A DNA stretch of 64,000 nt, taken from contig OZ246411.1 of the NCBI GenBank assembly GCA_965231055.1, forward strand, positions 537,875-601,874, in the 5' to 3' direction. Shown in pieces: positions 5,228 to 33,914 of the stretch (position 1 is the stretch's first letter; each line of letters opens with the position of its first letter). The DNA comes from an uncultured Candidatus Saccharibacteria bacterium. Its GTDB lineage: Bacteria; Patescibacteriota; CALEFQ01; G965231055. The notes beneath the pieces were generated by a model. The model was not told where the DNA came from. It made no database searches and saw only the letters and a list, made by a program, of their open reading frames with translations. The translations under genes were made by a program, and so were the position numbers.

Positions 5228-5288
5228 TTTTTACGGATTTTTGCTGTGTGATTCGAGCCCTGTAACTTGTATAGCAATATAGCTTTTT

Positions 5289-5298
5289 GTGGTATAAT
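5289..5298 (+). promoter_or_regulatory. extended -10 element TGGTATAAT placed 7 nt before the mraY ATG (possible leaderless start)
   Basis: TGnTATAAT at 5290-5298. ATG at 5306. No SD. Confidence 0.4.
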
Positions 5299-5305
5299 AA
5301 AACAT

Positions 5306-6397
5306 ATGTCAATTGCATTCCAACAACCAGAATTAACCTATGATCTCATCAAGGTTTTTATACTAACCTTCATAGCTTTTATTGTGGCTTTTGGGTTTAC
5401 TCCAATAATGACACACTTTCTTTACAAATATAAATTTTGGAGGACCAAGGCCAGAGATACAGCGCCTGACGGAAGCAAGACTCCTATTTTCAATAAATTG
5501 CACAAGAAAAAAGAAGTGGGCACTCCTAGGTCCGGTGGTCTCTTGATTTGGATTACAGTATTGGTTCTTTCTGTTTTTTTCTGGATTTTGTCTGTTTTCG
5601 TGCCTGGATTTTGGCCAGAAAAACTAAATTTTATAAGCAGGGATCAGACTTGGATTCTGCTTTTTGCTTTGGTCACCACTGCTATCCTTGGATTTGTTGA
5701 CGATTTCATGGTTGTAAAAAACAAAGGCGCTAATAGGGGTGGAGGAATCTCATTCAAAGTTAGATTAGTTATCGTGGCTCTAATAGGGGCTGCCGGGGCG
5801 TATTGGTTTTATTATAAGTTGGGTTGGGATTCTATTCATATACCAGCTATAGGAGATTTTATAATAGGATGGTGGTACATACCTTTGTTTATTTTTACTG
5901 TTATAGCTTCTGTTTTTTCGGTCAACGAATCTGACGGTCTTGATGGTCTCTCTGCGGGTTTGGTTGCATTGTCTTTTTCCGCTTTTGCAGGAATCGCTAT
6001 TTTTAGAGGGCAGATAAATATAGCAGCATTTTGTGGCGTGATAGTCGGTGCTACGTTAGCCTATCTTTGGTTCAATATTCCTCCAGCGAGGTTTTATATG
6101 GGGGACACTGGTTCTCTCGCTCTTGGAGCTACTCTGGCTGTAGTTGCGTTTCTTACTAATTCTTTTGTGGTTCTACCAATTATCGGAATAGTATTTCTTA
6201 TCGAAGCGATTTCTGTTGTGTTACAGCTTGGATCAAAAAGATTTAGAGGCAAAAAAATATTTTTAGTTGCGCCTATTCATCATCACTTTGAAGCCAAGGG
6301 TTGGCCAGCTCACAAAGTTACTATGAGATTCTGGGTTATTGGAGCTATTGCGGCTGTTATTGGGTTGGTTATAGGTATAATAGGTAGTGGAAAATAA
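5306..6397 (+). CDS. mraY: phospho-N-acetylmuramoyl-pentapeptide transferase
   Basis: DDFMVVKNKG, NESDGLDGLSAGL, MGDTGSLALGA and APIHHHFE motifs with multiple TM segments. The ORF track starts at 5267, but that lies upstream of the TATAAT box, so the ATG at 5306 is preferred. Confidence 0.88.
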   Translation: MSIAFQQPELTYDLIKVFILTFIAFIVAFGFTPIMTHFLYKYKFWRTKARDTAPDGSKTPIFNKLHKKKEVGTPRSGGLLIWITVLVLSVFFWILSVFVPGFWPEKLNFISRDQTWILLFALVTTAILGFVDDFMVVKNKGANRGGGISFKVRLVIVALIGAAGAYWFYYKLGWDSIHIPAIGDFIIGWWYIPLFIFTVIASVFSVNESDGLDGLSAGLVALSFSAFAGIAIFRGQINIAAFCGVIVGATLAYLWFNIPPARFYMGDTGSLALGATLAVVAFLTNSFVVLPIIGIVFLIEAISVVLQLGSKRFRGKKIFLVAPIHHHFEAKGWPAHKVTMRFWVIGAIAAVIGLVIGIIGSGK

Positions 6398-7503
6398 TGT
6401 TTAAAATAAACAAAGAATTTCTAATCATACTAATTCTAATTGCTATAGCAGTAGCTTTTGGTTTATGGTTTTTTATTTTTAAGGATGGTGTTGCTTTTGG
6501 ACCCGAAAGTATTATGAATAAATCTTCAAAAGCCATGAGCGAGGTAAAATCTGTTAAATTTCAATATTCTCAGGAAGCCCTAGTGGCCGCAAATGCAGTT
6601 GAAGAGAGTGATAGAAAGCTTAATTGTAGCGGAATGATTAATTTTCCTTCCAATGCTATGATTGAGTGCAAGGACGTGGGTGCAGAGTCTAGTGATGAAA
6701 AGGTTATATACTATAACAATAAAATTTTTATACCTCTTTCTCTTTTGGGTGAATCAGATTCTGATGAGTGGGTGGAGGTCACACAGGAAGATGGATACAA
6801 GTCTCTCGAATTATTTTACGCTTCAAATATTCTAAGTTTTGTATCAAGCGGTGGAGGCGAAATTAGTTCATCTGAAACCTCAGAGTTTGAGGGAAATAAG
6901 GCACACAAGATTGTTTTTAAGATTCCTTTTTCAAATGCTAGGGGTGTGAATGATATTTTTGATACGCTTGTTTCAGACAAAGACGGTGGCGAAATTATAG
7001 GAGAAATCCTGATAGATGAATCGAACTTTCTTATTCATTCCATGAGACTTACTTCAAAATACGAAAATAAGGATATCATGGCGGTAAGCTATGTATTCTC
7101 AGATTTCGATTCTGACATAGAAATCACCAAGCCTGAAAATATTATTTCTGAACCATCTTTATCTGATCAAGCTAATACCAAGCAAGACGTGGGAAGTGTT
7201 GCGCTGAGAAATACGATAAGAAAAAGTGATGTGAGACAGCTTGCCTATATTTTGGAAAAATACTACGAATCTAAGGGCGAATATCCTGAGAGTAGGTCCT
7301 TGTCTAGAACCGATGACGTCAATGGAGATTTTTATAAATCTTTAGTTCCTGAGTTTGTAGGGAGTCTCCCCGTAGATCCACTGCCTGAAAAATATTATTA
7401 TAGTTATACTTGTTTGGGTGGAGAGCAATACACGATCAAGGGAGTTACAGAATCTGAAAATAGTGAAAAAGTAGATTATTATATTTATGAAGGCCCACAA
7501 TAA
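6397..7503 (+). CDS. hypothetical secreted/membrane-anchored protein with pilin-like (T2SS GspG-like) C-terminal region
   Basis: Single N-terminal TM segment. C-terminal RQLAYILEKYYESKGEYPES...LPVDPLPEKYYYSY resembles the pseudopilin globular domain. No prepilin cleavage motif. Confidence 0.4.
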   Translation: MFKINKEFLIILILIAIAVAFGLWFFIFKDGVAFGPESIMNKSSKAMSEVKSVKFQYSQEALVAANAVEESDRKLNCSGMINFPSNAMIECKDVGAESSDEKVIYYNNKIFIPLSLLGESDSDEWVEVTQEDGYKSLELFYASNILSFVSSGGGEISSSETSEFEGNKAHKIVFKIPFSNARGVNDIFDTLVSDKDGGEIIGEILIDESNFLIHSMRLTSKYENKDIMAVSYVFSDFDSDIEITKPENIISEPSLSDQANTKQDVGSVALRNTIRKSDVRQLAYILEKYYESKGEYPESRSLSRTDDVNGDFYKSLVPEFVGSLPVDPLPEKYYYSYTCLGGEQYTIKGVTESENSEKVDYYIYEGPQ

Positions 7504-7509: not shown

Positions 7510-9084
7510 ATGTCAAAAATCATTATCAAAAACGGTACAATAGTAGACGGAAAAAACAGTGAGCCATACTTGGCTGATGTCGTGATTGAAAAAGGAAAAA
7601 TTAAGGCCATAGGAAACTACAAAAACAAAAAAGCCGAAAAAATCATTGATGCTTCTGGCAAATATGTTTCTCCTGGTTTTATTGATGCGCACTGTCACTC
7701 GGATGGATACTGGACTTTGTTTAAAATCCCAGCTCAAGAAAGTGCGATAGCTCAGGGTGTAACTACTATTGTGTGTGGAAATGATGGTACCTCCATAGCT
7801 CCACTTCCTAGACCCGAGGCTATTGAGACTATTCGCAGATGGGTGCCAGTTGGAGATCTTGCCGTGAATTGGATGACTATTGAGGGGCTTTTGAAAGAAT
7901 TAGAAAAAACAAGATTAGGAGTAAATTTTGCAACTTTGGTTGGACATACAACTTTGCGCAGAGGATTGGTGGGGGACGAGCGAAGAGATCTTTCTAGGGA
8001 GGAACTGGCGGTGATGAAAAATATGACAAGTGAGGCCATGAAAGAAGGTGCGCTTGGTTTTTCTACTGGGCTTTCATATTCTCACGTAAATTTTGTAAAA
8101 AATGAAGAAATAGATCATCTAGTTTCTCTGACGTCATCTATGGGTGGAGTTTATTCTACGCATTTGCGAAGTGAGAGCGAGGGGCTGTATGAAGCCACTG
8201 AAGAAGCTATCAGAACTTCTCAAAAGGCAAATGCTAGTTTGCTCATAGCTCACCTTAAGGCAAAGGGCAAAATGCATTGGAGTATTTTTGATAGAACTCT
8301 TAAACTAATAGAAAATTCTTATCGAGACGGGGTTAATGTTAACTTCACCGTTTATCCATATTCTACAACTGGTTCGGTTTTGTATGCATATTTTCCAAAA
8401 TGGATTACCGACGGAGGTAGAGATAGTATGCTATTAAGATTGCGAGATCATGCATCGCGAAAAAAATTGGTTAAGGAGCTCGCAGAAGATCAGAATGATT
8501 ATGAAAATATGATTGTTTCAATTTGCCCGTTTAGCAAGTCGCTAGTAGGTAAAAGCATCGGTGATATGGCTAGGGAAAGTGGTTTTTCAGTTGAAGAAGC
8601 CACGATCCAACTTTTGCTTGCTGGAAATGGACATGTAATAGTTTTTGATCAAACTATTGATGAGGATAATATGAAACAAGCCGTGATACATCCATTGTCA
8701 ATAATTGCTTCTAGCGGTGCTTATTACAACAACAAGTGGATGAAAGAAAATGAAGAGTTGGTGCATCCACGATCATTTGGTACATTTCCTCGCTTCTTGA
8801 AGCAGTTTGTGGTTGATGAAGGTTTGCTTAGTTGGAGTGAGGCGATATATAAAATCACTGGAATGCCAGCGGAAAAAATGGGGATAGCTGGAAGAGGTGT
8901 TTTGGCAAAAGGTAATTTTGCCGATATTGTGGTTTTTGATCCAAAAAATATTGAAGACTTGGCTACATTTGAAAATCCTTATAAGTATCCGAAAGGAATT
9001 GAAGCGGTATTGGTGAATGGCGAAATAGCCATGAAGGAAGGGGTGATTGGAAAAGAGAGGTTGGGAATATCAGTATCAAAATAA
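7510..9084 (+). CDS. N-acyl-D-amino-acid deacylase family amidohydrolase
   Basis: SPGFIDAHCHSD metal-binding motif. Length and layout resemble D-aminoacylase (Amidohydro_3). Confidence 0.7.
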   Translation: MSKIIIKNGTIVDGKNSEPYLADVVIEKGKIKAIGNYKNKKAEKIIDASGKYVSPGFIDAHCHSDGYWTLFKIPAQESAIAQGVTTIVCGNDGTSIAPLPRPEAIETIRRWVPVGDLAVNWMTIEGLLKELEKTRLGVNFATLVGHTTLRRGLVGDERRDLSREELAVMKNMTSEAMKEGALGFSTGLSYSHVNFVKNEEIDHLVSLTSSMGGVYSTHLRSESEGLYEATEEAIRTSQKANASLLIAHLKAKGKMHWSIFDRTLKLIENSYRDGVNVNFTVYPYSTTGSVLYAYFPKWITDGGRDSMLLRLRDHASRKKLVKELAEDQNDYENMIVSICPFSKSLVGKSIGDMARESGFSVEEATIQLLLAGNGHVIVFDQTIDEDNMKQAVIHPLSIIASSGAYYNNKWMKENEELVHPRSFGTFPRFLKQFVVDEGLLSWSEAIYKITGMPAEKMGIAGRGVLAKGNFADIVVFDPKNIEDLATFENPYKYPKGIEAVLVNGEIAMKEGVIGKERLGISVSK

Positions 9085-10468
9085 AATATTTTCGGGGGTA
9101 GAAATACTCCCGATTTTAAATCATTTTATGAAGTCGCAAAGAAGCTATGAAAAATTCATATTTGAATCTTTTGATTTTAACGAGGAAACTCGTGAAATTT
9201 GTTTAAAATATAGTTTTGACGAAACAGAAAAATTTGAAGAAAAGTTTATTTTGCCAGAAGGAAAATTGAACTTGGCAAATAAGGAAGTTTTGAATAGCGC
9301 ATTGTTTGCACTTCATTTGGCTTGTGGTGTGAGCTATTTCAAGGCATATGTTCCCCAGAACATCGAAGTCAGAAGTGGTGAGTTGAGCGAAGAACAATCC
9401 CAGTTTTGGAATAAGCTTTATGGCATAGGACTGGGACAGTTTTATTATGAAAATAAAATTGATTTCAGAAAACTTGTAAATTTCCCGTGTATAAAAAAAG
9501 AATTTACTCCAAAAGAAATCAGTCTTCCAAATAGAAGTCTGCTTTCAATTGGGGGAGGAAAAGATTCTTTAGTGTCTCTTAAGTTATTGGAAGACAATGG
9601 CTTTGATTTTGATAATTTTACTTTGGGTGAAAATGAGATTTTCAAGAGCATAGACAAAATTTCAAAGTATAAAAGGTTGGTAGTAAAAAGAATTATAGAT
9701 AAAAATTTAGTAGCTCTTAGTAAGAGCGGTAAGGTATACAATGGACATGTCCCAGTAAGTTCAATTATTGCTTTTATTGAAGTGATAGTTTGTATTCTCT
9801 ACGGATACAAAAATATTATCGTTTCAAACGAATCAAGTTCAAACGAAGGCAATGTTTCGTATTTAGGGATGAATATAAATCATCAGTATTCAAAGAGCTT
9901 TGAGTTTGAAAAAGATTTTGACTTTTATATTAAGAATTATATTTCAAAAGAAATAAATTATTTTAGTCTACTAAGGCCCCTGACTGAGCTCGCGATAACC
10001 AAAAATTTTGCGAGTATAGCCACAGAATACTTTTCTGTATTTAGTAGCTGTAATAACAATTTCAAAATTCAAAGAGACGGAACCAAATCGTTGTGGTGTT
10101 GTACTTGCCCCAAATGTGCTTTTGTTTTTCTCATGCTGTCAGCGTTCTTGCCAAAGACAAAACTAATTGAAATTTTTGGTGAAAATCTTTATGAAAAACA
10201 ATCGCTTTTACCTCTTTTCGAAGAGCTTTGGGGTACTAAAGGATCCAAGCCGTTTGAGTGTGTGGGAACTAGTAAAGAGGCATTGGCAGCAACACTGCTG
10301 GCAAGTAGAAGCAAGGAATACTCTCATTCATTTGTGATGGATTATTTTGAAAGTAAAATTGTTTCCACGATTGAAGATGCGGATAGATTAATTGAAAAAG
10401 AGATCGGTTCTCGCTCAGAACACAATATTCCCGAAGAATTTTACGGAAAAATAAAAGAAATTCAATAA
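9047..10468 (+). CDS. PP-loop (SGGxDS-like) ATP pyrophosphatase-family protein, function unknown; stop abuts the murD start
   Basis: LLSIGGGKDSLVS parallels the LLAISGGVDSSVS PP-loop of MnmA in this same window. C-terminal Cys cluster WCCTCPKCAF. Alternative start ATG at 9128 would avoid a 38-nt overlap with the upstream gene. Stop at 10468 is followed immediately by the murD ATG at 10469. Confidence 0.55.
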   Translation: MEKRGWEYQYQNKIFSGVEILPILNHFMKSQRSYEKFIFESFDFNEETREICLKYSFDETEKFEEKFILPEGKLNLANKEVLNSALFALHLACGVSYFKAYVPQNIEVRSGELSEEQSQFWNKLYGIGLGQFYYENKIDFRKLVNFPCIKKEFTPKEISLPNRSLLSIGGGKDSLVSLKLLEDNGFDFDNFTLGENEIFKSIDKISKYKRLVVKRIIDKNLVALSKSGKVYNGHVPVSSIIAFIEVIVCILYGYKNIIVSNESSSNEGNVSYLGMNINHQYSKSFEFEKDFDFYIKNYISKEINYFSLLRPLTELAITKNFASIATEYFSVFSSCNNNFKIQRDGTKSLWCCTCPKCAFVFLMLSAFLPKTKLIEIFGENLYEKQSLLPLFEELWGTKGSKPFECVGTSKEALAATLLASRSKEYSHSFVMDYFESKIVSTIEDADRLIEKEIGSRSEHNIPEEFYGKIKEIQ

Positions 10469-11797
10469 ATGAAGTTTAAAGAATTAGAAAATAAAAAAGT
10501 ATTAATACTCGGATTTGGAAAAGAGGGTAAAGAGACTCTTGCATTTTTGCGTGAGCTTTTTCCCGATAAAGTTTTTTATATAGCTGATGAGAATGAATCA
10601 GTTAAGTTGCCTGATTCAAATACCAAGCTAATTCTTGGGAAAGATTACTTAAATTCTCTGGATGAATATGATCTCATAATCAAATCTCCCGGAATAAAAT
10701 TTTTCCCGCAGATTTTAGCTGTGAATCAGAAAGTTACTTCGGCTACTCGTTTGTTTTTTCAAAATCTTGACGAATCAAATCGTGTTATCGGTGTCACTGG
10801 GTCCAAAGGTAAAAGCACTACAACCTCTTTGATTTATAATGTTCTTAGAGACGCAGGAATCAATACCGAAATAGTCGGTAATATAGGTAAACCATCTCTG
10901 TCTTTTGTAAATCTTAAGGATACTGTTTTTGTGTATGAGCTCTCAAGCTATCAGCTAGAAGATTTTTCTGAAAAAGTGGATGTGGCAATTTTTACTGCTT
11001 TTTTTCCCGATCATTTGGATTACCATGGCGGAATTGATGAATATTTTAAAGCCAAGTCTCATATAGTGAATAACCAAGATAAAAGTTGCTTTTTTGTTTA
11101 CAATTCAAAATATGAAAAAATAGCAAATCTTATAACCAATGCAGAGCGTCTAATTTGTGGAGACAGAAACTATTTTTGGCACGACGGGGAAAGTATTTAT
11201 TTGAAAGACGAGGTTATCGCTCGAACCGATTCACTGAAATTAATTGGTAATCATAATTTTGATAATATTCTATTGGTCTTGGCTGTTGCGGAAGTTTTCG
11301 ACATTGATGTGAAAAATTCAATAAAGTCTATTGCGAAATTCAGGGGATTACCACATAGGCTAGAATATGTAGGAAATTTTAACGGTATAGATTTTTACGA
11401 TGATGCTATCTCAACTACTCCTGAATCCACGATAGCGGCGATCAAGGTATTTCAAGACCGCATAGGATCAATTATTTTGGGAGGAAGGGATAGAGGATAT
11501 GACTTTTCTGGATTAGTGAAAGAACTTGTTTTTTACAAAATAAACTCAATCGTGCTTTTTCCTGAGAGCGGAGATAAAATCGAGTTAGAAATAAAAAAAC
11601 AAAAAGAGTATAATCCTAAAATTTTCAAAACATCTTCAATGGAAGATGCGGTAAAATTTTGTTACAATAACACTGAAAGTGGTAAGATGTGTCTGCTTTC
11701 AACAGCATCGCCTAGCTACAGTATTTTTAAGAATTTTGAAGAAAAAGGCGATTTGTTTAAAAAGTTTATAAAAGAATTAGCAAATGAAAAACAATAG
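10469..11797 (+). CDS. murD: UDP-N-acetylmuramoylalanine--D-glutamate ligase
   Basis: Mur ligase P-loop VIGVTGSKGKSTTTSL. Synteny murD-ftsW-murG-murC. Confidence 0.85.
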   Translation: MKFKELENKKVLILGFGKEGKETLAFLRELFPDKVFYIADENESVKLPDSNTKLILGKDYLNSLDEYDLIIKSPGIKFFPQILAVNQKVTSATRLFFQNLDESNRVIGVTGSKGKSTTTSLIYNVLRDAGINTEIVGNIGKPSLSFVNLKDTVFVYELSSYQLEDFSEKVDVAIFTAFFPDHLDYHGGIDEYFKAKSHIVNNQDKSCFFVYNSKYEKIANLITNAERLICGDRNYFWHDGESIYLKDEVIARTDSLKLIGNHNFDNILLVLAVAEVFDIDVKNSIKSIAKFRGLPHRLEYVGNFNGIDFYDDAISTTPESTIAAIKVFQDRIGSIILGGRDRGYDFSGLVKELVFYKINSIVLFPESGDKIELEIKKQKEYNPKIFKTSSMEDAVKFCYNNTESGKMCLLSTASPSYSIFKNFEEKGDLFKKFIKELANEKQ

Positions 11798-12974
11798 AGG
11801 AGAATTGGTAGATATGAGAAGGTCTAGTAAGTCAGACCTTGTTTTAACTTTTTCAGTGATTGCTTTGGTTGTGGTTGGACTGATCTCTATAGCGTCTGCG
11901 AGTTCAGTAAGGGGCTTTGAAAATTTTAATGACCCGTATTATTATTTCAAGCACCAGCTTTTTTATGGAGTAATAGTGGGAATTATCGCGATGTTTGTTG
12001 TTTCAAATATCAATTATCTTACTTTGAAAAAGCTTGGTAAGTGGTGTCTTTTTGGTTCTGTATTTTTATTGCTTTTGGTTTTTATTCCAGGAATAGGAAC
12101 TTCTTATGGAACAGGATCTCATAGCTGGATAAATATTGGTTTTTCTATTCAGCCTACCGAAATAGTAAAGCTTCTATTTATAATCTATCTTGCAGCTTGG
12201 CTAGAAAAAATGGGCAAAGACTTAGCTGATTTCAAAAAAGGCCTTTTGTCATTTGTATTTGCTTTGGGGATAGTCGCGGTGCTCATAATGTTGCAACCAG
12301 ATTTGGGTACTCTTATTGTTATAGCTTGTACTTCAATAGCAATGTTTTTCATGGGAGGCGCTCCTTCTAAATATATTGCTCTTATTCTTGGAGGAGCTGC
12401 TGCGTTTTTTGCTTTCTTGGTAAAAATCGCACCATATAGACTTGCTAGATTCACTGTGTTTCTTCACCCAGAGCTTGATCCTCAGGGAATAGGTTATCAG
12501 GTAAACCAAGCGTTACTAGCCGTGGGGTCTGGTGGAATATTTGGTTTGGGTCTAGGACATAGCAGGCAAAAATTCAACTATCTTCCAGAAGCCTCGGGAG
12601 ACTCTATATTTGCTATAATGTCAGAGGAGCTCGGGTTACTTAGAATAATTATTGTATTGGCGCTTTTTGCTATTTTCGCATGGAGAGGTTTTCGAATAGC
12701 TTCTAATACCAATGACAGATTTGGCAAGTTTTTAGCAATAGGTATAACTAGCTGGATAACCATCCAAGCTTTTATGAATATTGGCGCTATATTATCTCTT
12801 ATTCCGCTTACCGGAATCCCACTTCCTTTTATAAGTTATGGAGGAAGTTCAATAATTTTTTCACTCATAGGTGTCGGGATTCTTATGAATATTTCCAAGC
12901 AGAATAATGATCGATCGCGAAAGAATGTTACTAATTTCGGAGTAAGAAAAAAGCGTAGTAGGGTTATGGTCTAA
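11784..12974 (+). CDS. ftsW: SEDS-family peptidoglycan glycosyltransferase FtsW
   Basis: Polytopic membrane protein with FtsW/RodA-like conserved loops (PDLGT, SYGGSS). Sits between murD and murG. Confidence 0.85.
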   Translation: MKNNRGELVDMRRSSKSDLVLTFSVIALVVVGLISIASASSVRGFENFNDPYYYFKHQLFYGVIVGIIAMFVVSNINYLTLKKLGKWCLFGSVFLLLLVFIPGIGTSYGTGSHSWINIGFSIQPTEIVKLLFIIYLAAWLEKMGKDLADFKKGLLSFVFALGIVAVLIMLQPDLGTLIVIACTSIAMFFMGGAPSKYIALILGGAAAFFAFLVKIAPYRLARFTVFLHPELDPQGIGYQVNQALLAVGSGGIFGLGLGHSRQKFNYLPEASGDSIFAIMSEELGLLRIIIVLALFAIFAWRGFRIASNTNDRFGKFLAIGITSWITIQAFMNIGAILSLIPLTGIPLPFISYGGSSIIFSLIGVGILMNISKQNNDRSRKNVTNFGVRKKRSRVMV

Positions 12975-12983
12975 ACTAATACA

Positions 12984-14159
12984 ATGAGTAACAAAAATCT
13001 AAAATATAAAATACTTCTCGCCGGTGGAGGATCTATGGGGCACACAATACCCGCTATTTCTGTTGCTGAGGAGATAAGAAGAAAAGGCATCGATGCTGAG
13101 TTTCTTTTTGTAGGCTCAAATCCTAAAGTTGAAAAACAGTTTGTGACAAATTCCAAAATCGCTTATAAAAGCGTGTTGTCGGGAAAGCTCAGAAGATATT
13201 TTTCACTCAAAAACATTTTTGATTTTTTTAAATTTGTTATTGGAATAATAAAGGCGTTTTTTATTGTCAGTTCTTTTAAGCCAGATATCGTTTTTTGCAA
13301 GGGAGGATATGCGGCTCTTCCTGCAACTCTAGTTGCTGGATGGAAAAAAATACCTATAGTGGTTCATGAATCTGACTCTACGCCAGGGCTTGCAAATAAA
13401 ATTGTAGCTAAAAAAGCAGTCGCAGTTTGTGTGGCTTTTGAGAATATGGAAAAATTTTATCCGGGAATAAAAGTTGTTTTAACGGGTAATCCTATTAGGG
13501 AGCAAATAACGCGGGGAGATAAGAATAGAGCGATAAAGGAATTTGGATTGACGCAAGATAAGCCCGTGCTTTTTTTCACTGTTGCAAGTTCTTCGGCTGT
13601 TAATTTTTCCAATACCGTTATAGAATCTGCACCAAGACTTCTTTCCAAATTTCAAATTATCCAGCAGTGTGGTGCCATGAATTATAACTTAGTGCAAAAA
13701 AGAGTGAGAGATATTTTCGGCGAAAAAGACGTAGTGTGGGATTTAGTTGATACGCGTATAGATATAAAAGGAGATAGACATTATTGTATTCTCCCTACGA
13801 TGAGAGAGAGCATGGCTGATGCTTATGCCGTAGCTGATTTAGTGATTGCAAGGTCTTCGGCTTCAACTGCATTTGAATTGGCGCTACTTGGAAAGCCAGC
13901 TTTATTCATACCTCTGCCCGTGGGAGATAGCAGGGGAGATCAAGTTTTTAATGCAAAGTATTTTCAAGAAAGAGGCGCTGCTGAGGTTATTGAGAGCAGA
14001 GAACTTAGCGCTGAGACATTGGAAAACAAGATATTGGAAATATTTGAAAGTCCAGATAAGCTAAAGAATATGTCCGAAAATATAAAGAAATTAGCTCAAA
14101 CAAACGGAGCAAAAAATATAGCCGAAGTCATAATCTCAACATTACAAAAAAATGTTTAA
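12984..14159 (+). CDS. murG: UDP-GlcNAc:lipid I N-acetylglucosaminyltransferase
   Basis: ILLAGGGSMGHTIPAISVAEEI N-terminal MurG signature. GT28 C-terminal domain. Confidence 0.9.
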   Translation: MSNKNLKYKILLAGGGSMGHTIPAISVAEEIRRKGIDAEFLFVGSNPKVEKQFVTNSKIAYKSVLSGKLRRYFSLKNIFDFFKFVIGIIKAFFIVSSFKPDIVFCKGGYAALPATLVAGWKKIPIVVHESDSTPGLANKIVAKKAVAVCVAFENMEKFYPGIKVVLTGNPIREQITRGDKNRAIKEFGLTQDKPVLFFTVASSSAVNFSNTVIESAPRLLSKFQIIQQCGAMNYNLVQKRVRDIFGEKDVVWDLVDTRIDIKGDRHYCILPTMRESMADAYAVADLVIARSSASTAFELALLGKPALFIPLPVGDSRGDQVFNAKYFQERGAAEVIESRELSAETLENKILEIFESPDKLKNMSENIKKLAQTNGAKNIAEVIISTLQKNV

Positions 14160-15549
14160 CGATATAAAAAAAGTTCATATTGTCGGTATTGGTGGAATCG
14201 GTATATCAGCTCTTGCTCAGCTTTTACTGAAGAAGGGCGTTTTAGTTTCAGGATCTGATCTGAAAGAAAGACCAATACTTAAAAAACTTAAGGAACTTGG
14301 AGCGAGTGTTTGTGTGGGGGAGCATGATGCAAAGAATGTTGAAGAAAATACTGATATATTGGTATATGTTTCAGAGGCGAGAGAGGATAATCCAGAAATA
14401 ATTTTTGCCAAAAATAAAGGTATAAAATGTCTAAGCTATGCCGAGGCTTTGGGTTTGGTGATGAAAAATTACAAAAAAGTTATTACAATTTCGGGAACCA
14501 AGGGTAAAACCACTACCACTTCTATGATAGGCACTTCACTAGATTTTTCCAAACTAAATCCCACAGTTATCACTGGATCAATTGTTTTTGAGTGGGATAG
14601 TAATTTTTTGATGGGTAGCGATGATCTGATAGTGACCGAAGCATGTGAATGGAAAAGAAATTTTCTAAATTATGATCCTGATATAGCAGTGATAACAAAT
14701 ATTCAGAGTGAACATCTGGATTATTATAAAGACATAGAGGATATAAAAAATGCTTTCACTACACATTGCAGTAAAATAAAATCGGGAGGAATTTTGATTG
14801 CCTGTGGTGACGATGAAAATACACTCGAAGTCGCATCTAAATATACGGGAAGAAAAGTTTTTTACGGATTGGGTGAAAATAATCAGGTTAGAGCGATCAA
14901 TGTTAAAAAAGGCAACCTAAAGACACTTTTTGACGTAGAAATAGGAAGAGAGGATGCTAAAGATACAATTTCTGGATTTGAGATCGGTTTACCCGGAGAG
15001 CACAACATCCAAAATTCTCTTGCCTCCATTGCAGTTATGAATGAGCTTGGTGTGGATAAAAGTTTGATGCCCCAAGCTATATCAAATTACAAGGGAGTTA
15101 GTAGGAGGTTTGAAATAAAAGGTGAAAAAAACGGCATATTGGTTGTAGATGATTATGCTCATACGCCTATTTCGGTAAAAAAGATGATTGATGGTGCCAA
15201 GGAATTTTATGGTGATCGTAGAATAGTAGTTGTCTTTGAGCCTCATAGATATAGTAGAACTAGGCATGAATTTGGTGATTTCGTAAAAGCATTTGATAGC
15301 GCTGACAAGGTTATTTTGGCTGATATTTACAGATTAAAGCAGGATTCAGAAGAAGACGTTCTGGCAGTAAATAGTAAGATGCTCGCAGATGAGATCAAAA
15401 AAAGAGGTGTGGATATAGTTCATGTGCCATCTTTGTTGGATATACCTGATTACCTAGTCAAAATATCTAGAAAAGGTGATATAATTATAACAATGGGAGC
15501 AGGAGATGTTTACAGGGTTGGCGAAGAATTTATCAAAAATAATCACTAA
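14152..15549 (+). CDS. murC: UDP-N-acetylmuramate--L-alanine ligase
   Basis: VHIVGIGGIGISALAQLL Rossmann start, Mur ligase P-loop ISGTKGKTTTTSM, DIAVITNI. Confidence 0.9.
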   Translation: MFNDIKKVHIVGIGGIGISALAQLLLKKGVLVSGSDLKERPILKKLKELGASVCVGEHDAKNVEENTDILVYVSEAREDNPEIIFAKNKGIKCLSYAEALGLVMKNYKKVITISGTKGKTTTTSMIGTSLDFSKLNPTVITGSIVFEWDSNFLMGSDDLIVTEACEWKRNFLNYDPDIAVITNIQSEHLDYYKDIEDIKNAFTTHCSKIKSGGILIACGDDENTLEVASKYTGRKVFYGLGENNQVRAINVKKGNLKTLFDVEIGREDAKDTISGFEIGLPGEHNIQNSLASIAVMNELGVDKSLMPQAISNYKGVSRRFEIKGEKNGILVVDDYAHTPISVKKMIDGAKEFYGDRRIVVVFEPHRYSRTRHEFGDFVKAFDSADKVILADIYRLKQDSEEDVLAVNSKMLADEIKKRGVDIVHVPSLLDIPDYLVKISRKGDIIITMGAGDVYRVGEEFIKNNH

Positions 15550-23349: not shown

Positions 23350-25686
23350 ATGAAAACCAATTTCAAGAAAAAAGTGAAATTTGGAGTAAGCGTTGTTGTC
23401 ACTGTTTCCTTAGTATTGGGTTCAATACTAAGCTTTGCCAATGCCGCAGATGCTCTCAAATTTTCAAACGCCAACAAAGCAACTCAAATGCATAAGGTTT
23501 ACGAAAACCTTAATGATAAATTTGAGCTTTCTGATAATGGCGGAAGAATTTATCAGGACAAGAAATATGATCTAGAATTCAGAACCAATTTTGCCTCTTT
23601 GCCTTATCAGAGAAGCAATGGTTCAGTTAACTCTCTAGAGATTACAATCAAAAACACAGGAGAAAAAGCTCAAGAAGTAAGAGCTGAGCACTTGGCTTTT
23701 CAAATCAATCCTATTGTAAGAACCAATGGGGAATGTACATACCTAAACAACGGTCAGCCAAATGTTGCTAGCGAAGAGCTTGCTCAAATAATTGATAATC
23801 AAGAAGTTGCTTTTGATACCATAGTTCCTCCACTTTGCTATTGGGATCCTTCAATGCAAAGCGCTTGGGGTAAAGAAATAAAGATGGTTCAAAACACTTA
23901 CGAGAAATATGTGCAACCTGCACAGAGTGTTTTGGTTGCAGCTCAAAGTGAGAAAACAATCAAATTCGAATATAGACTTACGGATGCTGGTTATTTTCAA
24001 GATGACGTAGCATTCTCAGTAAGTGGTAATCCTATAGGAATGGTTGGAACTTATTATAGAGTTCCTGGTTTAGGACAACCAAGTGTACAAATAGATAAAG
24101 TCGCTTCAGTTGCAGATCCTAGGACTTCTGATTCGGTTTGGAGCAAAGAAATCCAAATCAAAAGAGGTTCTGATATGTGGTTTAAAGTAACCGCGACAAA
24201 TACAGGAAGCGCTGATGCTACTGAAGTTTGGTTGGGAGATATATTCGGAGAAGCTGATCAAGCTAACAAGATATTGACTCCAGGATATGTGAGACATATA
24301 GATGATAAAATTAATTTGGTAAGTGATAATTATACTACAGGTAATATAGAAGTATTTGGTTCAAATCTAAATGCCTTGAGAATAGGCAGTATATGGGCAA
24401 GCGACAACGTTTTGAATCCAAATGTGGATGCCGAAATAGTTGATATCGACAAAGATGGAATAAAAGATTTTGTTTCTGTAAAAGCTACTCACCTAAAACC
24501 AGGTGAATCAAAAACCTTCTATGTGAAAAATACCGCGAAAGCAGATCTTTCTCTTGGTGAAAAAATCATGAAGAATCAGGGTGCTTTCTTCTCATGGTAT
24601 TTGAATCCTAAGTTTAAAACTTCTGAGGCTGTGGTTAAAATAGGAAAAACTGCTCCTCCAATTGTTCAACCAGGACCACATGAGATTACGCCTAGTCCAA
24701 AAGCTACTATTACCAATCTTGTTTCTGATACAAATGATGACTACGCAAAGAGCATAGTATCAAAGGTTGGTGAAGAGATAGCATATAGGATCACAGTTAC
24801 AAATACTGGAAACACCAAGCAAAATGGAACTCTTGTTAATGATTATGATGAGAAATACATCGAAGTCATTGATCCTGATACAAAAGATATAGCCAAATCG
24901 TTTGTGGATTCTAAAAAGCTTACTACTTATGAATTGGGTGAGCTCAAATCAAACGAATCAGTTGTTATAGATGTAAAAGCTAAAGTAAAAAGCTCTCTTC
25001 CTACAACTGAGGTAGTTATAGATGATGCTGCTGAATATACCGAGGATCAGATTGATCCTATCTCTGCAAATGCATCTGTGACCGTTAAGGCTAGACCAGA
25101 TACACAAGGAGCATATCTTATAGTTGATAAGTCGCTAAACGATGTTAATGGCGCAGCCATTGAACCAGGTGATGAACTAAGATATGTAGTTAGTGTTACC
25201 AACAAAGGAGATGCCGATGCAAAAAATGTCTTGGTTGAAGACAATATGCCAAGATATACAAATGGCTTTTCAGTAATAAAACTTCCTAGTGGAGCAGAAG
25301 ATAAGTCTTCAAAAACAGGTGGAGCCAACGATACAGGTATGCTTAAAGTTATTATAGAAAAAGTAAAAGTTGGTGAAACTCAAGAAATAGAATATAGAGT
25401 CTTTGTTGACAGCAAGGTTCCTGATGGAGCTGAGATTGTGAACAAAGCAACCGCAGCATCTGATGATAAAAAAGGAACTGGAACTGTTGCTGGAACGATA
25501 GGAAAAACCAATGTTGTGAAAACAGGAGAGGTTTTGGGAGCAAGTAAGACTCCTGCTAATGTTCCAACTGGACCAGTAGAAGATGCAGTTAAATGGATAC
25601 TATTCGCTATTGTTATGGGTGTTGCTGGAGTATTCTCATTTACAAAATTTACTCTTCCATTTTCTCTAGGAATTGTAGCTAAGTAA
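23350..25686 (+). CDS. large cell-surface protein with DUF11-like repeat domains and a C-terminal sortase sorting signal
   Basis: Signal peptide (ANAADA). Recurrent xVTxTNTGxxxAxxV repeats (KVTATNTGSADATEV, ITVTNTGNTKQNG, VSVTNKGDADAKNV). C-terminus has NVPTGP followed by a hydrophobic segment and a short Lys-containing tail. Immediately followed by a sortase gene. Confidence 0.6.
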   Translation: MKTNFKKKVKFGVSVVVTVSLVLGSILSFANAADALKFSNANKATQMHKVYENLNDKFELSDNGGRIYQDKKYDLEFRTNFASLPYQRSNGSVNSLEITIKNTGEKAQEVRAEHLAFQINPIVRTNGECTYLNNGQPNVASEELAQIIDNQEVAFDTIVPPLCYWDPSMQSAWGKEIKMVQNTYEKYVQPAQSVLVAAQSEKTIKFEYRLTDAGYFQDDVAFSVSGNPIGMVGTYYRVPGLGQPSVQIDKVASVADPRTSDSVWSKEIQIKRGSDMWFKVTATNTGSADATEVWLGDIFGEADQANKILTPGYVRHIDDKINLVSDNYTTGNIEVFGSNLNALRIGSIWASDNVLNPNVDAEIVDIDKDGIKDFVSVKATHLKPGESKTFYVKNTAKADLSLGEKIMKNQGAFFSWYLNPKFKTSEAVVKIGKTAPPIVQPGPHEITPSPKATITNLVSDTNDDYAKSIVSKVGEEIAYRITVTNTGNTKQNGTLVNDYDEKYIEVIDPDTKDIAKSFVDSKKLTTYELGELKSNESVVIDVKAKVKSSLPTTEVVIDDAAEYTEDQIDPISANASVTVKARPDTQGAYLIVDKSLNDVNGAAIEPGDELRYVVSVTNKGDADAKNVLVEDNMPRYTNGFSVIKLPSGAEDKSSKTGGANDTGMLKVIIEKVKVGETQEIEYRVFVDSKVPDGAEIVNKATAASDDKKGTGTVAGTIGKTNVVKTGEVLGASKTPANVPTGPVEDAVKWILFAIVMGVAGVFSFTKFTLPFSLGIVAK

Positions 25687-25691
25687 AAATA

Positions 25692-32798: not shown

Positions 32799-33914
32799 AT
32801 GAAAACTAATCGTAAAAAAAAGGTACTTCTAGCTATTTCTGGGGGAGTGGATAGCTCCGTCTCAGCTTTTATATTGAAGAAACAAGGCTATGAGGTTGTG
32901 GGAGCTTTTATGAAATTCTGGAAAGAATCTAGTAAAGACACCGAGGACAATAAATGTTGTTCTATGGAATCGCTTAGGGACGCCAGGGAAGTTATGAACA
33001 AAATTGGCGGAAAGCTATATGTAATAAATTTCAAGGAGCTTTTCAAGAAGCAAGTGGTTGATTATTTTATAGAAAGCTATGCTATGGGAGAGACTCCCAA
33101 TCCTTGTGTGAGGTGTAATAAATTCGTGAAACTGGGAGCGCTTTATAAAAAAGCAGAGGAGCTCGGATGTGATTTCGTGGCAACTGGACATTACGCGAGA
33201 ATCAAGCGCACTAGAAATGAAGCAAAAAACTCAAAAAAATATATTTATAAGCTTTTTGCTGGTATAGATAAGACAAAGGATCAGACTTATTTTTTGTATA
33301 ATCTAAATCAAGAAAAACTCTCAAAAACTCTTTTCCCTGTTGGTGATATGAAAAAAACTAAGGTTTCTAAGATGGCTAATAAGCTAGGTATTAATGCAGC
33401 AAAAAAGAAAGAAAGCCAAGAGATTTGTTTCGTTCCAGATAAAACACACTATGAATTTCTAAGAAATAAAATCCAAAAGTCACTAACACCTGGCCCAATT
33501 TTGTTTAATAACGAAAAAATAGGGGAGCATAAGGGATTACCTCTTTATACAATAGGCCAGAGAAAGGGAATAGAGATTGGAGGCGTAGGACCTTTTTATG
33601 TGCTTAAATGTGATTACAAAACCAATACTCTCTTTGTGACTGATAAATTTGACGATGATAGGTTGTTTTCAAAATCTATGAGAGTGAAAAATATTAGCTG
33701 GATTTCTGGCGTTGCCTCTGAAATACCTTTTGACTGTAAAATTAAAATTAGATATGGGCATGAGGCAGTAGATGGGAAAATTATCTCAGCGCAAAAAGAT
33801 ATTGTAGAGTTGGAATTTGAAAAACCAGAACGAGCTATTACAATAGGACAGTCCGCGGTATTTTATCTAAAAAATGAGGTTATTGGAGGCGGAGAAATAA
33901 CTAAGAGTATTTAG
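32799..33914 (+). CDS. mnmA: tRNA-specific 2-thiouridylase
   Basis: PP-loop LLAISGGVDSSVSAFIL. Conserved Cys (NPCVRCN) and GHYAR catalytic motifs. Confidence 0.9.
   Translation: MKTNRKKKVLLAISGGVDSSVSAFILKKQGYEVVGAFMKFWKESSKDTEDNKCCSMESLRDAREVMNKIGGKLYVINFKELFKKQVVDYFIESYAMGETPNPCVRCNKFVKLGALYKKAEELGCDFVATGHYARIKRTRNEAKNSKKYIYKLFAGIDKTKDQTYFLYNLNQEKLSKTLFPVGDMKKTKVSKMANKLGINAAKKKESQEICFVPDKTHYEFLRNKIQKSLTPGPILFNNEKIGEHKGLPLYTIGQRKGIEIGGVGPFYVLKCDYKTNTLFVTDKFDDDRLFSKSMRVKNISWISGVASEIPFDCKIKIRYGHEAVDGKIISAQKDIVELEFEKPERAITIGQSAVFYLKNEVIGGGEITKSI

What the first reader, a model, noticed from the sequence alone, without database searches (positions are those of the whole stretch)
9047..11797. 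PP-loop ATPase-like gene whose stop abuts the murD start: candidate peptidoglycan-precursor modifying enzyme (MurL-like hypothesis)
Seen in sequence:
- The 473-aa product contains LLSIGGGKDSLVS, which parallels the LLAISGGVDSSVS PP-loop of MnmA encoded in the same window.
- It has a C-terminal cysteine cluster (WCCTCPKCAF).
- Its TAA stop ends at 10468 and the murD ATG follows directly at 10469.

Established knowledge: PP-loop enzymes adenylate substrates (ATP to AMP + PPi). In Xanthomonas an ATP-dependent, AMP-forming epimerase (MurL) acts on UDP-MurNAc-L-Ala-L-Glu and is encoded next to a murD variant.

Inference: this gene may perform an adenylation-dependent step on the MurD substrate or product (L-Glu to D-Glu epimerisation, or amidation). 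That would be relevant if the genome lacks glutamate racemase.
Basis: inference. Interest (0 to 1): 0.6.

Follow-up and report, generated by a model that had tools for sequence, protein, structure and literature searches.

The report
MurL epimerase gene beside murD
This gene encodes a relative of MurL, the ATP-using enzyme that flips L-glutamate to D-glutamate on a cell-wall precursor. It sits directly in front of its partner ligase murD in a tiny candidate-phyla-radiation (CPR) bacterium, so it is a new member of a known but little-studied pathway rather than a new kind of enzyme.

Summary
**Observation:** confirmed at the stated coordinates.

**Interpretation:** supported.
- The ORF matches NCBIfam MurL end to end (E=2.8e-113) and carries the precomputed Pfam domains MurL_N and MurL_epimerase_C.
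- It is 33% identical over its whole length to an annotated Xanthomonas MurL and keeps all 33 residues invariant across 65 family members.
- An AlphaFold model (pLDDT 93) has a QueC-like PP-loop core. The family profile aligns its GGGKDS loop with the PP-loop of TtuA.
- The cysteine cluster follows a QueC-like C…CxxCxxC pattern.
- In 76 informative related genome loci, murD is always present: abutting or overlapping in 49 and fused into one ORF in 21.
- The window MurD carries the Ile/Arg/Pro signature that separates 74 MurL-linked MurDs from 13 canonical and 51 MurL-less CPR MurDs. However, it has Asp where Xanthomonas MurD2 has the specificity residue Glu197.

**Not testable here:** absence of murI from the whole genome.

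**Verdict:** new member of a known kind.

**Side finding:** the upstream D-aminoacylase-like gene belongs to a CPR family tightly linked to murD. Most members, including this one, lack the catalytic Asp.

The parts
9047..10468 (+). [quoted passage not shown] 473 aa from TTG 9047, or 446 aa from the alternative ATG at 9128.
   Evidence: ORF. NCBIfam NF041275 MurL, E=2.8e-113, model positions 5-445 of 447. Precomputed PF26299 MurL_N + PF26298 MurL_epimerase_C. 33% identity, E=7e-84, to X. sacchari murL. N-termini of homologues fit ATG 9128.
9551..9568 (+). PP-loop GGGKDS (G142-S147), the predicted ATP alpha/beta-phosphate-binding loop.
   Evidence: G143, G144, D146 and S147 are invariant; G142 and K145 are >=93% conserved in 65 homologues. 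Aligns with the SGGKDS of TtuA (E=7.4e-5) and the SGGVDS of MnmA. Sits in the QueC-like core of the AF2 model.
10049..10117 (+). Predicted QueC-type Zn site.
   Evidence: All four Cys are invariant in 65 homologues. QueC is the top structural match. The comparison with the QueC Zn motif C...CxxCxxC rests on my own knowledge of QueC structures; metal binding was not tested.
10247..10270 (+). KPFECVGT motif with invariant C378, a candidate acid/base or thioester residue for the epimerisation step.
   Evidence: K374, P375, C378, V379 and G380 are invariant. The catalytic role is inference only.
10469..11797 (+). murD of the MurL-linked (MurD2-like) type, whose ATG abuts the murL stop. Diagnostic residues: D181 (nt 11009-11011), I314 (11408-11410), R342 (11492-11494), P415 (11711-11713), Y417 (11717-11719).
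   Evidence: TIGR01087 murD 303 bits, above the 212 cutoff. Residue mapping against verified E. coli MurD and X. sacchari MurD2. Signature statistics.
7510..9084 (+). D-aminoacylase-like amidohydrolase directly upstream. Belongs to a CPR family linked to murD. This copy has Asp for the Zn-ligand Cys (D92) and Ser for the strand-8 catalytic Asp (S402).
   Evidence: PDB D-aminoacylase 1rjq E=7e-71 and N-acyl-D-glutamate deacylase 3gip E=1.4e-59. Residue table. Synteny in 85 loci.
5267..6397 (+). mraY, the upstream member of the dcw-type cluster.
   Evidence: PF00953 Glycos_transf_4.
11784..15549 (+). ftsW (11784-12974), murG (12984-14159) and murC (14152-15549), the downstream dcw genes. They overlap or abut, consistent with one operon.
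   Evidence: Pfam families. ORF coordinates.

Best explanation
The ORF is a functional orthologue of MurL, and together with the abutting murD it forms the alternative MurD2/MurL route to the D-Glu residue of peptidoglycan.

**Proposed sequence of events**
1. [quoted passage not shown]
2. MurL binds ATP in a QueC-like PP-loop domain (GGGKDS) and adenylates the alpha-carboxylate of the terminal L-Glu, releasing PPi.
3. The activated acyl-adenylate has an acidified C-alpha proton. The proton is removed and returned from the opposite face.
4. [quoted passage not shown]

**Other inferred features**
- Candidate bases for step 3 are the invariant C378, H207, H252 and K256. An oxazolone or a Cys378-thioester intermediate is also conceivable.
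- ATP consumption plus L-specific adenylation would make the reaction one-way.
- The invariant C308/C324/C327/C330 cluster most likely holds a structural or substrate-positioning Zn, as in QueC.
- The TAA-ATG junction, and full gene fusion in relatives, couple the two enzymes stoichiometrically.

**Basis of each step**
- Shown here: homology, fold, motif conservation, synteny and fusion, and the MurD residue signature.
- Taken from the literature on Xanthomonas, Micromonospora and Salinispora enzymes: L-Glu ligation and ATP-to-AMP unidirectional epimerisation.
- Inferred: the roles of individual residues, Zn binding, and that this CPR pair behaves like the characterised ones.
For: **Family membership**
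- NCBIfam MurL, E=2.8e-113 over the whole model.
- Pfam MurL_N + MurL_epimerase_C precomputed for this exact protein.
- 33% identity, E=7e-84, end to end to annotated X. sacchari MurL, sharing the motifs IGGGKDSLVS, NGH(V/I)PV, INHQ(Y/W)SK, SLLRPL, FSSCN, WCxxCPKC and KPFECVG.
- All 33 positions invariant in 65 family members are present.

**Fold and PP-loop**
- AF2 model pLDDT 93.4, pTM 0.93.
- Best PDB folds are QueC 3bl5 and 2pg3 (probability 1.00, TM on target 0.63 and 0.55), then other PP-loop ATP pyrophosphatases.
- PP-loop profile match to TtuA, E=7.4e-5.

**Synteny and fusion**
- 76 of 80 genome loci contain murD; the other 4 are cut by contig ends.
- 73 loci have the order murL then murD. 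49 abut or overlap within 45 nt. 21 are single fused ORFs.
- Fusion proteins of 800-914 aa also appear among cluster representatives.

**MurD signature at E. coli D182/K319/K348/A414/L416**
- Window: D-I-R-P-Y.
- 74 MurL-linked MurDs: (E57/D17)-I67-R72-P68-(Y57/F13).
- 13 canonical MurDs: never Glu, 12 Lys, 10 Lys/3 Arg, never Pro.
- 51 CPR MurDs with no murL in the locus: D-(A/T)-K-A-F, never Arg or Pro.
- Six Asp-type MurDs are physically fused to MurL, including the window MurD's near relatives L010, L012 and L023.

**Context**
- This murD sits in the housekeeping dcw region (mraY, two intervening genes, murL, murD, ftsW, murG, murC).
- No murI or dat domain in the window genes scanned.
Against: - The NCBIfam score (378.8) is far below the equivalog cutoff (700), which is tuned to Xanthomonadales.
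- Identity to a Xanthomonas MurL orthologue is only 33%, and no CPR MurL has been assayed.
- The MurD has Asp at the position of X. oryzae MurD2 Glu197. There E197D altered stereospecificity, and E197D/R358K switched the enzyme to D-Glu (PMC8788868). This MurD could therefore accept D-Glu as well.
- Absence of murI, dat or a second murD in the roughly 844-kb genome could not be checked.
- At least one CPR bacterium is reported to have glutamate racemase activity (title in the reference list of PMC11974145).
- The NJ tree separates MurL-linked MurDs from 12 canonical MurDs with only 68% bootstrap, and the MurL-less CPR MurDs are not placed stably.
- Zn binding and the catalytic base are unverified.
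Confidence: 0.8

Rival explanations
1. MurL is genuine, but here it acts as a corrector or second route rather than the sole route. The Asp-181 MurD accepts both D-Glu (salvaged, or made by an unseen racemase) and L-Glu, and MurL converts whatever L-Glu product is formed.
For: - Asp rather than Glu at the Glu197-equivalent position.
- E197D alters the chiral preference of X. oryzae MurD2.
- 17 of 74 MurL-linked MurDs are of the Asp type.
- A D-aminoacylase-family gene, whose relatives release D-Glu from N-acyl-D-Glu (PDB 3gip named N-acyl-D-glutamate deacylase), lies directly upstream.
- Some CPR bacteria are reported to have racemase activity.
Against: - Six Asp-type MurDs are fused to MurL, which makes little sense unless their main product needs MurL.
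- Arg, Pro and Ile at the other diagnostic sites match the L-Glu type.
- The window's D-aminoacylase-like protein lacks the catalytic Asp and the Cys ligand, so D-Glu release by it is doubtful.
Confidence: 0.12
2. The CPR protein uses QueC-like chemistry (adenylation followed by attack of ammonia) to amidate the Glu alpha-carboxylate of the MurD product, giving iso-glutamine, instead of epimerising it.
For: - The closest solved fold is QueC. By my own knowledge, QueC turns a carboxylate into an amide and then a nitrile with ATP and ammonia.
- The cell-wall chemistry of this organism is unknown.
Against: - All 33 family-invariant residues are shared with the Xanthomonadales clade, whose X. oryzae member epimerises with ATP and Mg2+ and for which no ammonia requirement is reported.
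- The partner MurD carries the L-Glu-type signature, which requires an epimerase downstream.
- No glutaminase partner gene is adjacent.
Confidence: 0.05
3. It is a tRNA- or nucleobase-modifying PP-loop enzyme (QueC, TilS, MnmA or TtuA type) that lies next to murD by chance.
For: - PP-loop motif and QueC-like core.
- One JGI record names a homologue 7-cyano-7-deazaguanine synthase.
Against: - Only about 200 of 446 residues align with QueC, at 15-16% identity.
- The N-terminal MurL_N domain and the C-terminal helical region have no counterpart in those enzymes.
- No Pfam tRNA-binding domain was found.
- murD adjacency in 76 of 76 informative loci and 21 fusions cannot be chance.
Confidence: 0.02
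4. It is an endonuclease, as several NCBI records name homologues 'endonuclease domain-containing protein'.
For: Names given by NCBI to P0015, P0034, P0056, P0116 and P0118.
Against: No nuclease family is hit in Pfam, NCBIfam or the PDB. The same proteins carry the MurL domains.
Confidence: 0.01

Closest known systems
[quoted passage not shown] 2017, as reviewed in PMC8788868 and PMC5808125)
   Same: - Same length and domain layout, with full-length homology.
- Same conserved motifs, including the PP-loop and the five invariant Cys.
- Same gene order, with murL directly upstream of a MurD-like ligase.
   Different: - About 33% identity, below NCBI's equivalog cutoff.
- The host is a CPR bacterium, not one of the taxa listed in the reviews.
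- The pair lies inside the dcw cluster between mraY and ftsW. In X. sacchari it lies next to lysA-type and unrelated genes.
- No biochemical data exist for this clade.
MurD2 (XOO_1320), the L-Glu-adding MurD
   Same: - Arg at R358, Pro at P433, an aromatic residue at F435 and Ile in place of E. coli K319.
- Intact Mur-ligase catalytic residues: K115, E157, H183 and K198 equivalents.
   Different: - Asp instead of Glu197, a minority state found in 17 of 74 MurL-linked MurDs.
- About 31% mean identity to Xanthomonadales MurD2 versus 29% to canonical MurDs. Membership therefore rests on the signature and on linkage, not on overall similarity.
QueC (7-cyano-7-deazaguanine synthase; PDB 3bl5, 2pg3) and other PP-loop ATP pyrophosphatases
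   Same: - Rossmann-like PP-loop core, with QueC the best structural match.
- SGGxDS-type loop.
- A C...CxxCxxC cluster after the core, matching QueC's Zn site (own knowledge).
- AMP-forming activation of a carboxylate.
   Different: - 15-16% identity, and only the central ~200 residues align.
- The first loop residue is Gly, not Ser.
- Extra N-terminal (MurL_N) and C-terminal helical domains.
- The outcome is epimerisation plus hydrolysis, not amidation or nitrile formation.
- The substrate is a UDP-muramyl dipeptide.
D-aminoacylase / N-acyl-D-glutamate deacylase (PDB 1m7j, 3gip), for the upstream neighbour only
   Same: Full-length homology, E=7e-71 and 1.4e-59. The HxH motif, H220 and H250 equivalents are retained.
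   Different: The Zn-ligand Cys96 is Asp and the catalytic Asp366 is Ser in the window protein. 56 of 88 family members lack that Asp.

Membership tests
[quoted passage not shown] | Full-length sequence homology to characterised MurL (family HMMs) | tested here: met
   NF041275 E=2.8e-113, model positions 5-445 of 447. Precomputed PF26299 + PF26298. BLASTP to X. sacchari MurL, E=7e-84.
[quoted passage not shown] | Score above NCBI's curated equivalog cutoff (700 bits) | tested here: not met
   378.8 bits. The model is named MurL_Xanthmoales, and the cutoff appears tuned to that order.
[quoted passage not shown] | Conservation of family-invariant residues | tested here: met
   All 33 positions invariant in 65 sequences are present. 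The set includes Xanthomonas, Rhodanobacter, Alphaproteobacteria and CPR.
[quoted passage not shown] | Encoded next to, and required together with, a MurD2-type ligase | tested here: met
   Stop and start abut at 10468/10469. Adjacency in 76 of 76 informative loci and 21 fusions.
[quoted passage not shown] | Genome lacks glutamate racemase and D-amino-acid aminotransferase | not testable with these tools
   No such domain in the window genes scanned; ORFs at 59221-62816 were not scanned. The rest of the 843,892-bp contig could not be read.
[quoted passage not shown] | [quoted passage not shown] | not testable with these tools
   A biochemical property known for the X. oryzae, Micromonospora and Salinispora enzymes.
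MurD2 (L-Glu-adding MurD) | Glu at X. oryzae position 197 (E. coli D182) | tested here: not met
   Asp181 in the window MurD. 17 of 74 MurL-linked MurDs share Asp, and 6 of those are fused to MurL.
MurD2 (L-Glu-adding MurD) | Arg at position 358 (E. coli K348) | tested here: met
   R342. Arg in 72 of 74 linked MurDs, 0 of 51 MurL-less CPR MurDs and 3 of 13 canonical MurDs.
MurD2 (L-Glu-adding MurD) | Pro433 and aromatic 435 (E. coli A414, L416), and loss of E. coli K319 | tested here: met
   P415, Y417 and I314. Pro in 68 of 74 linked MurDs and in none of 64 unlinked ones. Ile in 67 of 74 linked MurDs, in 1 of 13 canonical MurDs, and in none of the 51 MurL-less CPR MurDs.
MurD2 (L-Glu-adding MurD) | Preference for L-Glu over D-Glu in vitro | not testable with these tools
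   Needs an enzyme assay.
PP-loop ATP pyrophosphatase superfamily (QueC-like) | SGGxDS-type PP-loop at the N-terminus of a Rossmann-like domain | tested here: met
   GGGKDS, with Gly for the first Ser. Profile alignment to TtuA at E=7.4e-5 and to MnmA. G143, G144, D146 and S147 are invariant in the family.
PP-loop ATP pyrophosphatase superfamily (QueC-like) | Fold similarity to solved members | tested here: met
   Foldseek: QueC 3bl5 E=1.1e-4, probability 1.00, TM(target) 0.63. Then TtuA, Cap9, MnmA, ThiI and argininosuccinate synthase.
PP-loop ATP pyrophosphatase superfamily (QueC-like) | Zn bound by a C...CxxCxxC cluster (QueC subfamily) | tested here: inconclusive
   The pattern C308-x15-C324-x2-C327-x2-C330 is present and invariant. 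Model coordinates could not be inspected, and metal binding is untested.
tRNA-modifying PP-loop enzymes (TilS, MnmA, TtuA, ThiI) | tRNA-binding or substrate domains flanking the PP-loop core | tested here: not met
   No such Pfam or NCBIfam domain. Structural matches cover only the core, with TM(query) 0.14-0.23.

The most novel reading that the evidence does not exclude
In CPR bacteria the MurD step may be organised in two alternative, previously undescribed gene modules.

- **Module 1:** MurL plus a MurD2-type ligase. This is widespread and often fused into one polypeptide.
- **Module 2:** a D-aminoacylase-like protein plus a Lys348/Ala414-type MurD. Most copies of this protein have lost the catalytic strand-8 Asp.

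The window carries a hybrid of the two: a degenerate D-aminoacylase-like gene, murL, and an Asp-181 MurD2-type ligase.

On this reading:
- The D-aminoacylase-like protein is an unrecognised component of D-Glu supply or quality control for peptidoglycan. It could act in salvage, in editing of the N-acyl-D-Glu-terminated precursor, or in a non-hydrolytic role.
- MurL/MurD2, described in reviews as confined to a few genera, is a major D-Glu route in a large part of the CPR.
Probability: 0.3. Interest if true: 0.7.

Novelty: new member of a known kind. Interest (0 to 1): 0.45.

Why it matters
- **Annotation:** the gene can be named. The public record carries no name for it, and relatives are labelled 'hypothetical' or 'endonuclease domain-containing'.
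- **Distribution:** the open-access reviews list MurD2/MurL only for some Gamma- and Alphaproteobacteria and rare actinomycetes, and treat it as a narrow-spectrum drug target. Here the family has at least 7,913 90%-clusters and 2,674 50%-cluster representatives, and the nearest relatives are overwhelmingly CPR. This changes how narrow such a target would be. It also affects how peptidoglycan synthesis in genome-reduced episymbionts should be reconstructed, because a missing murI need not mean D-Glu auxotrophy.
- **Mechanism:** the reviews state that MurL 'lacks known conserved domains'. The QueC-like PP-loop core, the four-Cys cluster and a short list of invariant polar residues turn the proposed adenylation mechanism into specific mutagenesis targets.
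- **Partnership:** natural MurL-MurD fusions give independent genomic proof of the functional link and offer convenient constructs for structural work.

Tried and rejected
- **Local Pfam copy:** gave no hit for the ORF. The MurL models PF26298 and PF26299 appear only in the precomputed annotations.
- **PDB sequence search with the single protein:** nothing meaningful. No solved MurL was detected.
- **RNA genes:** no tRNA and no Rfam family in the window.
- **The window's own genome:** CPR affiliation therefore rests on the nearest relatives and gene content.
- **Genome-wide murI/dat check:** impossible with the tools, because only 10-kb flanks can be fetched.
- **Literature:** no open paper links MurL to CPR, to PP-loop or QueC, or links D-aminoacylase to CPR or murD. 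The 2024 paper on a Saccharimonas glutamate racemase is not held.
- **MurD phylogeny:** a quick NJ tree gives only moderate support (68%) for a MurL-linked clade. The MurL-less CPR MurDs are not placed stably, so I rely on the residue signature instead. One sequence (L057) was mis-trimmed in the first tree and was removed.
- **Upstream amidohydrolase as a conserved third member of the murL-murD module:** rejected. It accompanies murL in only 2 of the 80 MurL-seeded loci (L039, L046) and 4 of the 72 informative Daa-seeded loci.
- **'Endonuclease' and tRNA-modification readings:** rejected (see the rival explanations).

Full report
**1. Observation**

The ORF 9047..10468 (+, TTG, 473 aa) exists as described.
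- LLSIGGGKDSLVS is at aa 165-177 (nt 9539-9577) and WCCTCPKCAF is at aa 350-359 (nt 10094-10123).
- The MnmA motif quoted for comparison is at aa 10-22 of ORF 32799..33914, whose product hits tRNA_Me_trans and its M and C domains.
- The TAA ends at 10468 and the murD ATG begins at 10469.

The only correction concerns the start codon.
- TTG 9047 overlaps the upstream gene by 38 nt and follows a purine-rich stretch. It is the start in the public gene call.
- ATG 9128 gives an N-terminus (MKSQRSYEKFIFESF) that lines up with 35 homologues.
- I number residues from ATG 9128 (446 aa).

**2. What the protein is**

Direct family evidence:
- The local Pfam copy gave nothing.
- NCBIfam NF041275, UDP-N-acetyl-alpha-D-muramoyl-L-alanyl-L-glutamate epimerase (MurL), matches with E=2.8e-113 over model positions 5-445 of 447. 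The score of 378.8 bits is below the 700-bit equivalog cutoff.
- The large protein collection holds this exact protein on an 843,892-bp NCBI contig, with precomputed Pfam domains PF26299 (MurL_N) and PF26298 (MurL_epimerase_C).

Comparison with a reference pair:
- A Xanthomonas sacchari replicon in the plasmid collection carries an annotated murL directly upstream of, and overlapping, its murD.
- The window protein aligns to that MurL end to end: 33% identity, E=7e-84, with only 5 gapped positions.

Conservation:
- 65 family members from CPR, Xanthomonadales, Alphaproteobacteria and a Pseudonocardia plasmid share 33 invariant positions.
- These positions are Y70, K72, G101, F105, G143, G144, D146, S147, R188, G206, H207, P209, E235, N251, H252, Q253, S255, K256, E261, E287, S307, C308, W323, C324, C327, K329, C330, F332, K374, P375, C378, V379 and G380. 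The window protein has all of them.

Family size:
- At least 7,913 90%-identity clusters.
- 2,674 50%-cluster representatives at E<=1e-3, and 1,200 at E<=1e-30.

**3. Fold and motif**

- An AlphaFold2 model built on 36 sequences is confident (mean pLDDT 93.4, pTM 0.93).
- Foldseek against the PDB puts QueC first: 3bl5 at E=1.1e-4, probability 1.00, TM on target 0.63, and 2pg3 at 0.55. TtuA, Cap9, MnmA, ThiI and argininosuccinate synthase follow. All are PP-loop ATP pyrophosphatases.
- A profile of the family aligns its GGGKDS segment with the SGGKDS PP-loop of TtuA (E=7.4e-5) and the SGGVDS of MnmA.
- The 'C-terminal cysteine cluster' is part of an invariant C308-x15-C324-x2-C327-x2-C330 pattern. 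This has the form of the Zn site of QueC. That comparison is from my own knowledge, and metal binding is untested.
- A fifth invariant cysteine, C378 in KPFECVG, lies in the C-terminal helical part.
[quoted passage not shown] I found no open paper linking MurL to PP-loop enzymes or QueC.

**4. Genomic context**

- The window is from a low-GC (37%) genome with CPR/Patescibacteria character. All close homologues come from Gracilibacteria, Peregrinibacteria/Peribacteria, Parcubacteria, Microgenomates and similar groups.
- The gene sits in a dcw-type operon: Peptidase_S11, mraY, a 368-aa membrane protein, a D-aminoacylase-like gene, murL, murD, ftsW, murG, murC.
- A scan of GTDB species representatives gave at least 598 relatives, and I analysed the best 80 loci.

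| Class of locus (80 in total) | Count |
|---|---|
| Cut by a contig end at murL | 4 |
| Contain murD | 76 |
| Order murL then murD, same strand | 73 |
| Order murD then murL | 3 |
| Genes abut or overlap within 45 nt | 49 |
| Gap of 105-3,390 nt | 6 |
| Single continuous ORF (20 MurL-MurD, 1 MurD-MurL) | 21 |

Two fusions were confirmed with the ORF tool: 814 aa in L039 and 840 aa in L059. Representatives of 800-914 aa also appear in the family search. Fusion is strong independent evidence that the two enzymes act together.

**5. Is the MurD of the L-Glu type?**

The review gives the residues that distinguish X. oryzae MurD2 from E. coli MurD: E197/D182, R358/K348, P433/A414 and F435/L416. 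It also reports that K319T lets E. coli MurD accept L-Glu, and that E197D/R358K converts MurD2 into a D-Glu ligase. I verified an E. coli MurD sequence at 100% identity to annotated murD and mapped the sites.

| MurD set | Ec D182 | Ec K319 | Ec K348 | Ec A414 | Ec L416 |
|---|---|---|---|---|---|
| Window MurD | D181 | I314 | R342 | P415 | Y417 |
| X. sacchari MurD2 | E | I | R | P | F |
| 74 MurL-linked MurDs (window included) | E 57 / D 17 | I 67 | R 72 | P 68 | Y 57 / F 13 |
| 13 canonical MurDs from 9 phyla | D 9 / A 3 / N 1 | K 12 | K 10 / R 3 | never P | variable |
| 51 CPR MurDs with no murL in the locus | D 49 / N 2 | A or T 49 | K 51 | never P | F |

- Ile319, Arg348 and Pro414 therefore track MurL linkage, even within the CPR, and the window MurD has all three.
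- The exception is Asp at the Glu197 position, the canonical state.
- This state is compatible with partnership. Six Asp-type MurDs are fused to MurL, including L010, L012 and L023, which are the window MurD's neighbours in the tree.
- It nevertheless leaves open a relaxed specificity.
- A quick NJ tree groups MurL-linked MurDs, including the proteobacterial MurD2s, apart from 12 canonical ones in 68 of 100 bootstraps. The MurL-less CPR MurDs are not placed stably. I treat the tree as weak support.

**6. Mechanism proposed**

Steps taken from the literature:
- MurL converts the product to the D-Glu form, using one ATP and releasing AMP. There is no reverse reaction.

Steps supported here:
- ATP is bound by a QueC-like PP-loop domain. 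This fits an AMP-forming adenylation of the Glu alpha-carboxylate.

Steps inferred:
- The acyl-adenylate lowers the pKa of the C-alpha proton.
- An invariant base (C378, H207, H252 or K256) inverts the centre. The inversion could be direct, via an oxazolone, or via a Cys thioester.
- Hydrolysis then releases the product.
- The four-Cys site holds Zn.
- The TAA-ATG junction, or fusion in relatives, couples expression of the two enzymes.

**7. What could not be settled**

- Whether the genome lacks murI and dat. None of the window genes scanned has such a domain; three ORFs at 59.2-62.8 kb were not scanned, and the rest of the contig is out of reach.
- One CPR bacterium is reported to have glutamate racemase activity. 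I saw only the title, cited in PMC11974145; the paper itself is not held.
- No CPR MurL or MurD has been assayed.

**8. Side finding**

Identity of the upstream gene (7510..9084):
- It is homologous to D-aminoacylase (1rjq, E=7e-71) and N-acyl-D-glutamate deacylase (3gip, E=1.4e-59).
- Its close relatives (45-53% identity) are CPR proteins named D-aminoacylase.

Synteny across 85 loci of this family (5 exact look-ups plus a metagenome scan). 72 of them have enough downstream sequence to classify:

| Gene directly downstream | Loci |
|---|---|
| murD of the Lys348/Ala414 type | 47 |
| murL (three of the four with a murD2-type ligase after it) | 4 |
| ftsW, most with mraY detected upstream (the gene sits in the murD slot of the dcw cluster) | 10 |
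| Something else | 11 |

Catalytic residues:
- The strand-8 Asp (A. faecalis D366) is Asn in 50, Asp in 32, Ala in 3, Ser in 2 and Gly in 1 of 88 sequences.
- The Zn ligands Cys, His and His are mostly kept.
- The window protein has Asp for the Cys ligand and Ser for the catalytic Asp.

Interpretation:
- A family that is tightly linked to murD, yet mostly lacks the general base of amidohydrolases, is unexplained. I found no open paper on it.
- It is not a constant partner of murL. It accompanies murL in only 2 of the 80 MurL-seeded loci and 4 of the 72 informative Daa-seeded loci.

**9. Verdict**

- The gene is a new, divergent member of a known family, in a lineage and gene context not covered by the published descriptions I could read.
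- I rate it moderately interesting. The enzyme kind has been known since 2017 and database models already recognise it.
- Three points add value: the breadth in the CPR with frequent MurL-MurD fusions, the QueC-like PP-loop architecture with concrete catalytic candidates, and the murD-linked degenerate D-aminoacylase family.

Noticed in passing
window 7510-9084 (+); related loci L098-L182, L039, L046: - The D-aminoacylase-like gene directly upstream of murL belongs to a CPR family tightly linked to murD. Of 72 informative loci, it is followed by a Lys348/Ala414-type murD in 47, by murL in 4 and by ftsW in the murD slot of the dcw cluster in 10.
- 56 of 88 members lack the catalytic strand-8 Asp (Asn in 50).
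- The window copy has Asp for the Zn-ligand Cys (D92) and Ser for the catalytic Asp (S402).
- The function is unexplained.
   Followed up: yes
loci L008, L010, L012, L015, L023, L038, L039, L045-L047, L055, L057, L059, L060, L062, L064, L065, L069, L071, L080, L081: MurL and MurD are fused into one ORF of about 800-900 aa in 21 of 76 genome loci. L057 has the reverse order, MurD-MurL. Fused representatives also appear in the 50%-cluster library, for example P0123-P0125, P0175 and P0187.
   Followed up: yes
L005 (Pseudonocardia alni plasmid pPaSha1, 5938-7338); also hits H8 and H9: MurL-like genes on Pseudonocardia plasmids (H7-H9); the one locus read, L005 on P. alni pPaSha1, keeps nearly all family-invariant residues (PP-loop GGGRDS) and has no murD nearby, its neighbours being an HTH protein and a WD40 protein. 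This may be a paralogue acting on another substrate.
   Followed up: partly
window 9047 versus 9128: The start codon of murL is ambiguous. The public gene call uses TTG 9047, which overlaps the upstream gene by 38 nt and has a purine-rich upstream stretch. ATG 9128 matches the N-termini of the homologues.
   Followed up: partly
homologues P0015, P0034, P0056, P0116, P0118, P0046: Public names for CPR MurL homologues are inconsistent: 'endonuclease domain-containing protein' (NCBI), '7-cyano-7-deazaguanine synthase' (JGI) and 'hypothetical protein'. The first two look like mis-annotations.
   Followed up: partly
window 6397-7503 (+): A 368-aa protein with an N-terminal hydrophobic segment and no Pfam hit lies between mraY and the D-aminoacylase-like gene. 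Its 32%-identical counterpart occupies the same position in L098 and has a weak T2SSG (pseudopilin) hit; L115 also has a homologue in the same position.
   Followed up: no
L090 (Pusillibacter faecalis pMM59_01 murD): A Bacillota MurD with Ile at the E. coli K319 position and Asn at D182, but with Lys348 and Thr414. It groups with the MurL-linked MurDs in the NJ tree. I did not check whether that organism has murL.
   Followed up: no
window 49525-50541, 57264-58352, 58358-59167 (+): Two MreB paralogues and MreC, plus MurA at 48159-49421, occur in a genome with CPR character. This suggests a rod-shape machinery.
   Followed up: no
window 23350-32714 (+): A 778-aa surface protein with CLIPPER-type repeats and a sortase lie upstream; after a sigma-70-type factor (26461-27588) come a DUF8128 protein and two TrwB/VirD4-like ATPases. 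This is a T4SS-like block just upstream of mnmA.
   Followed up: no
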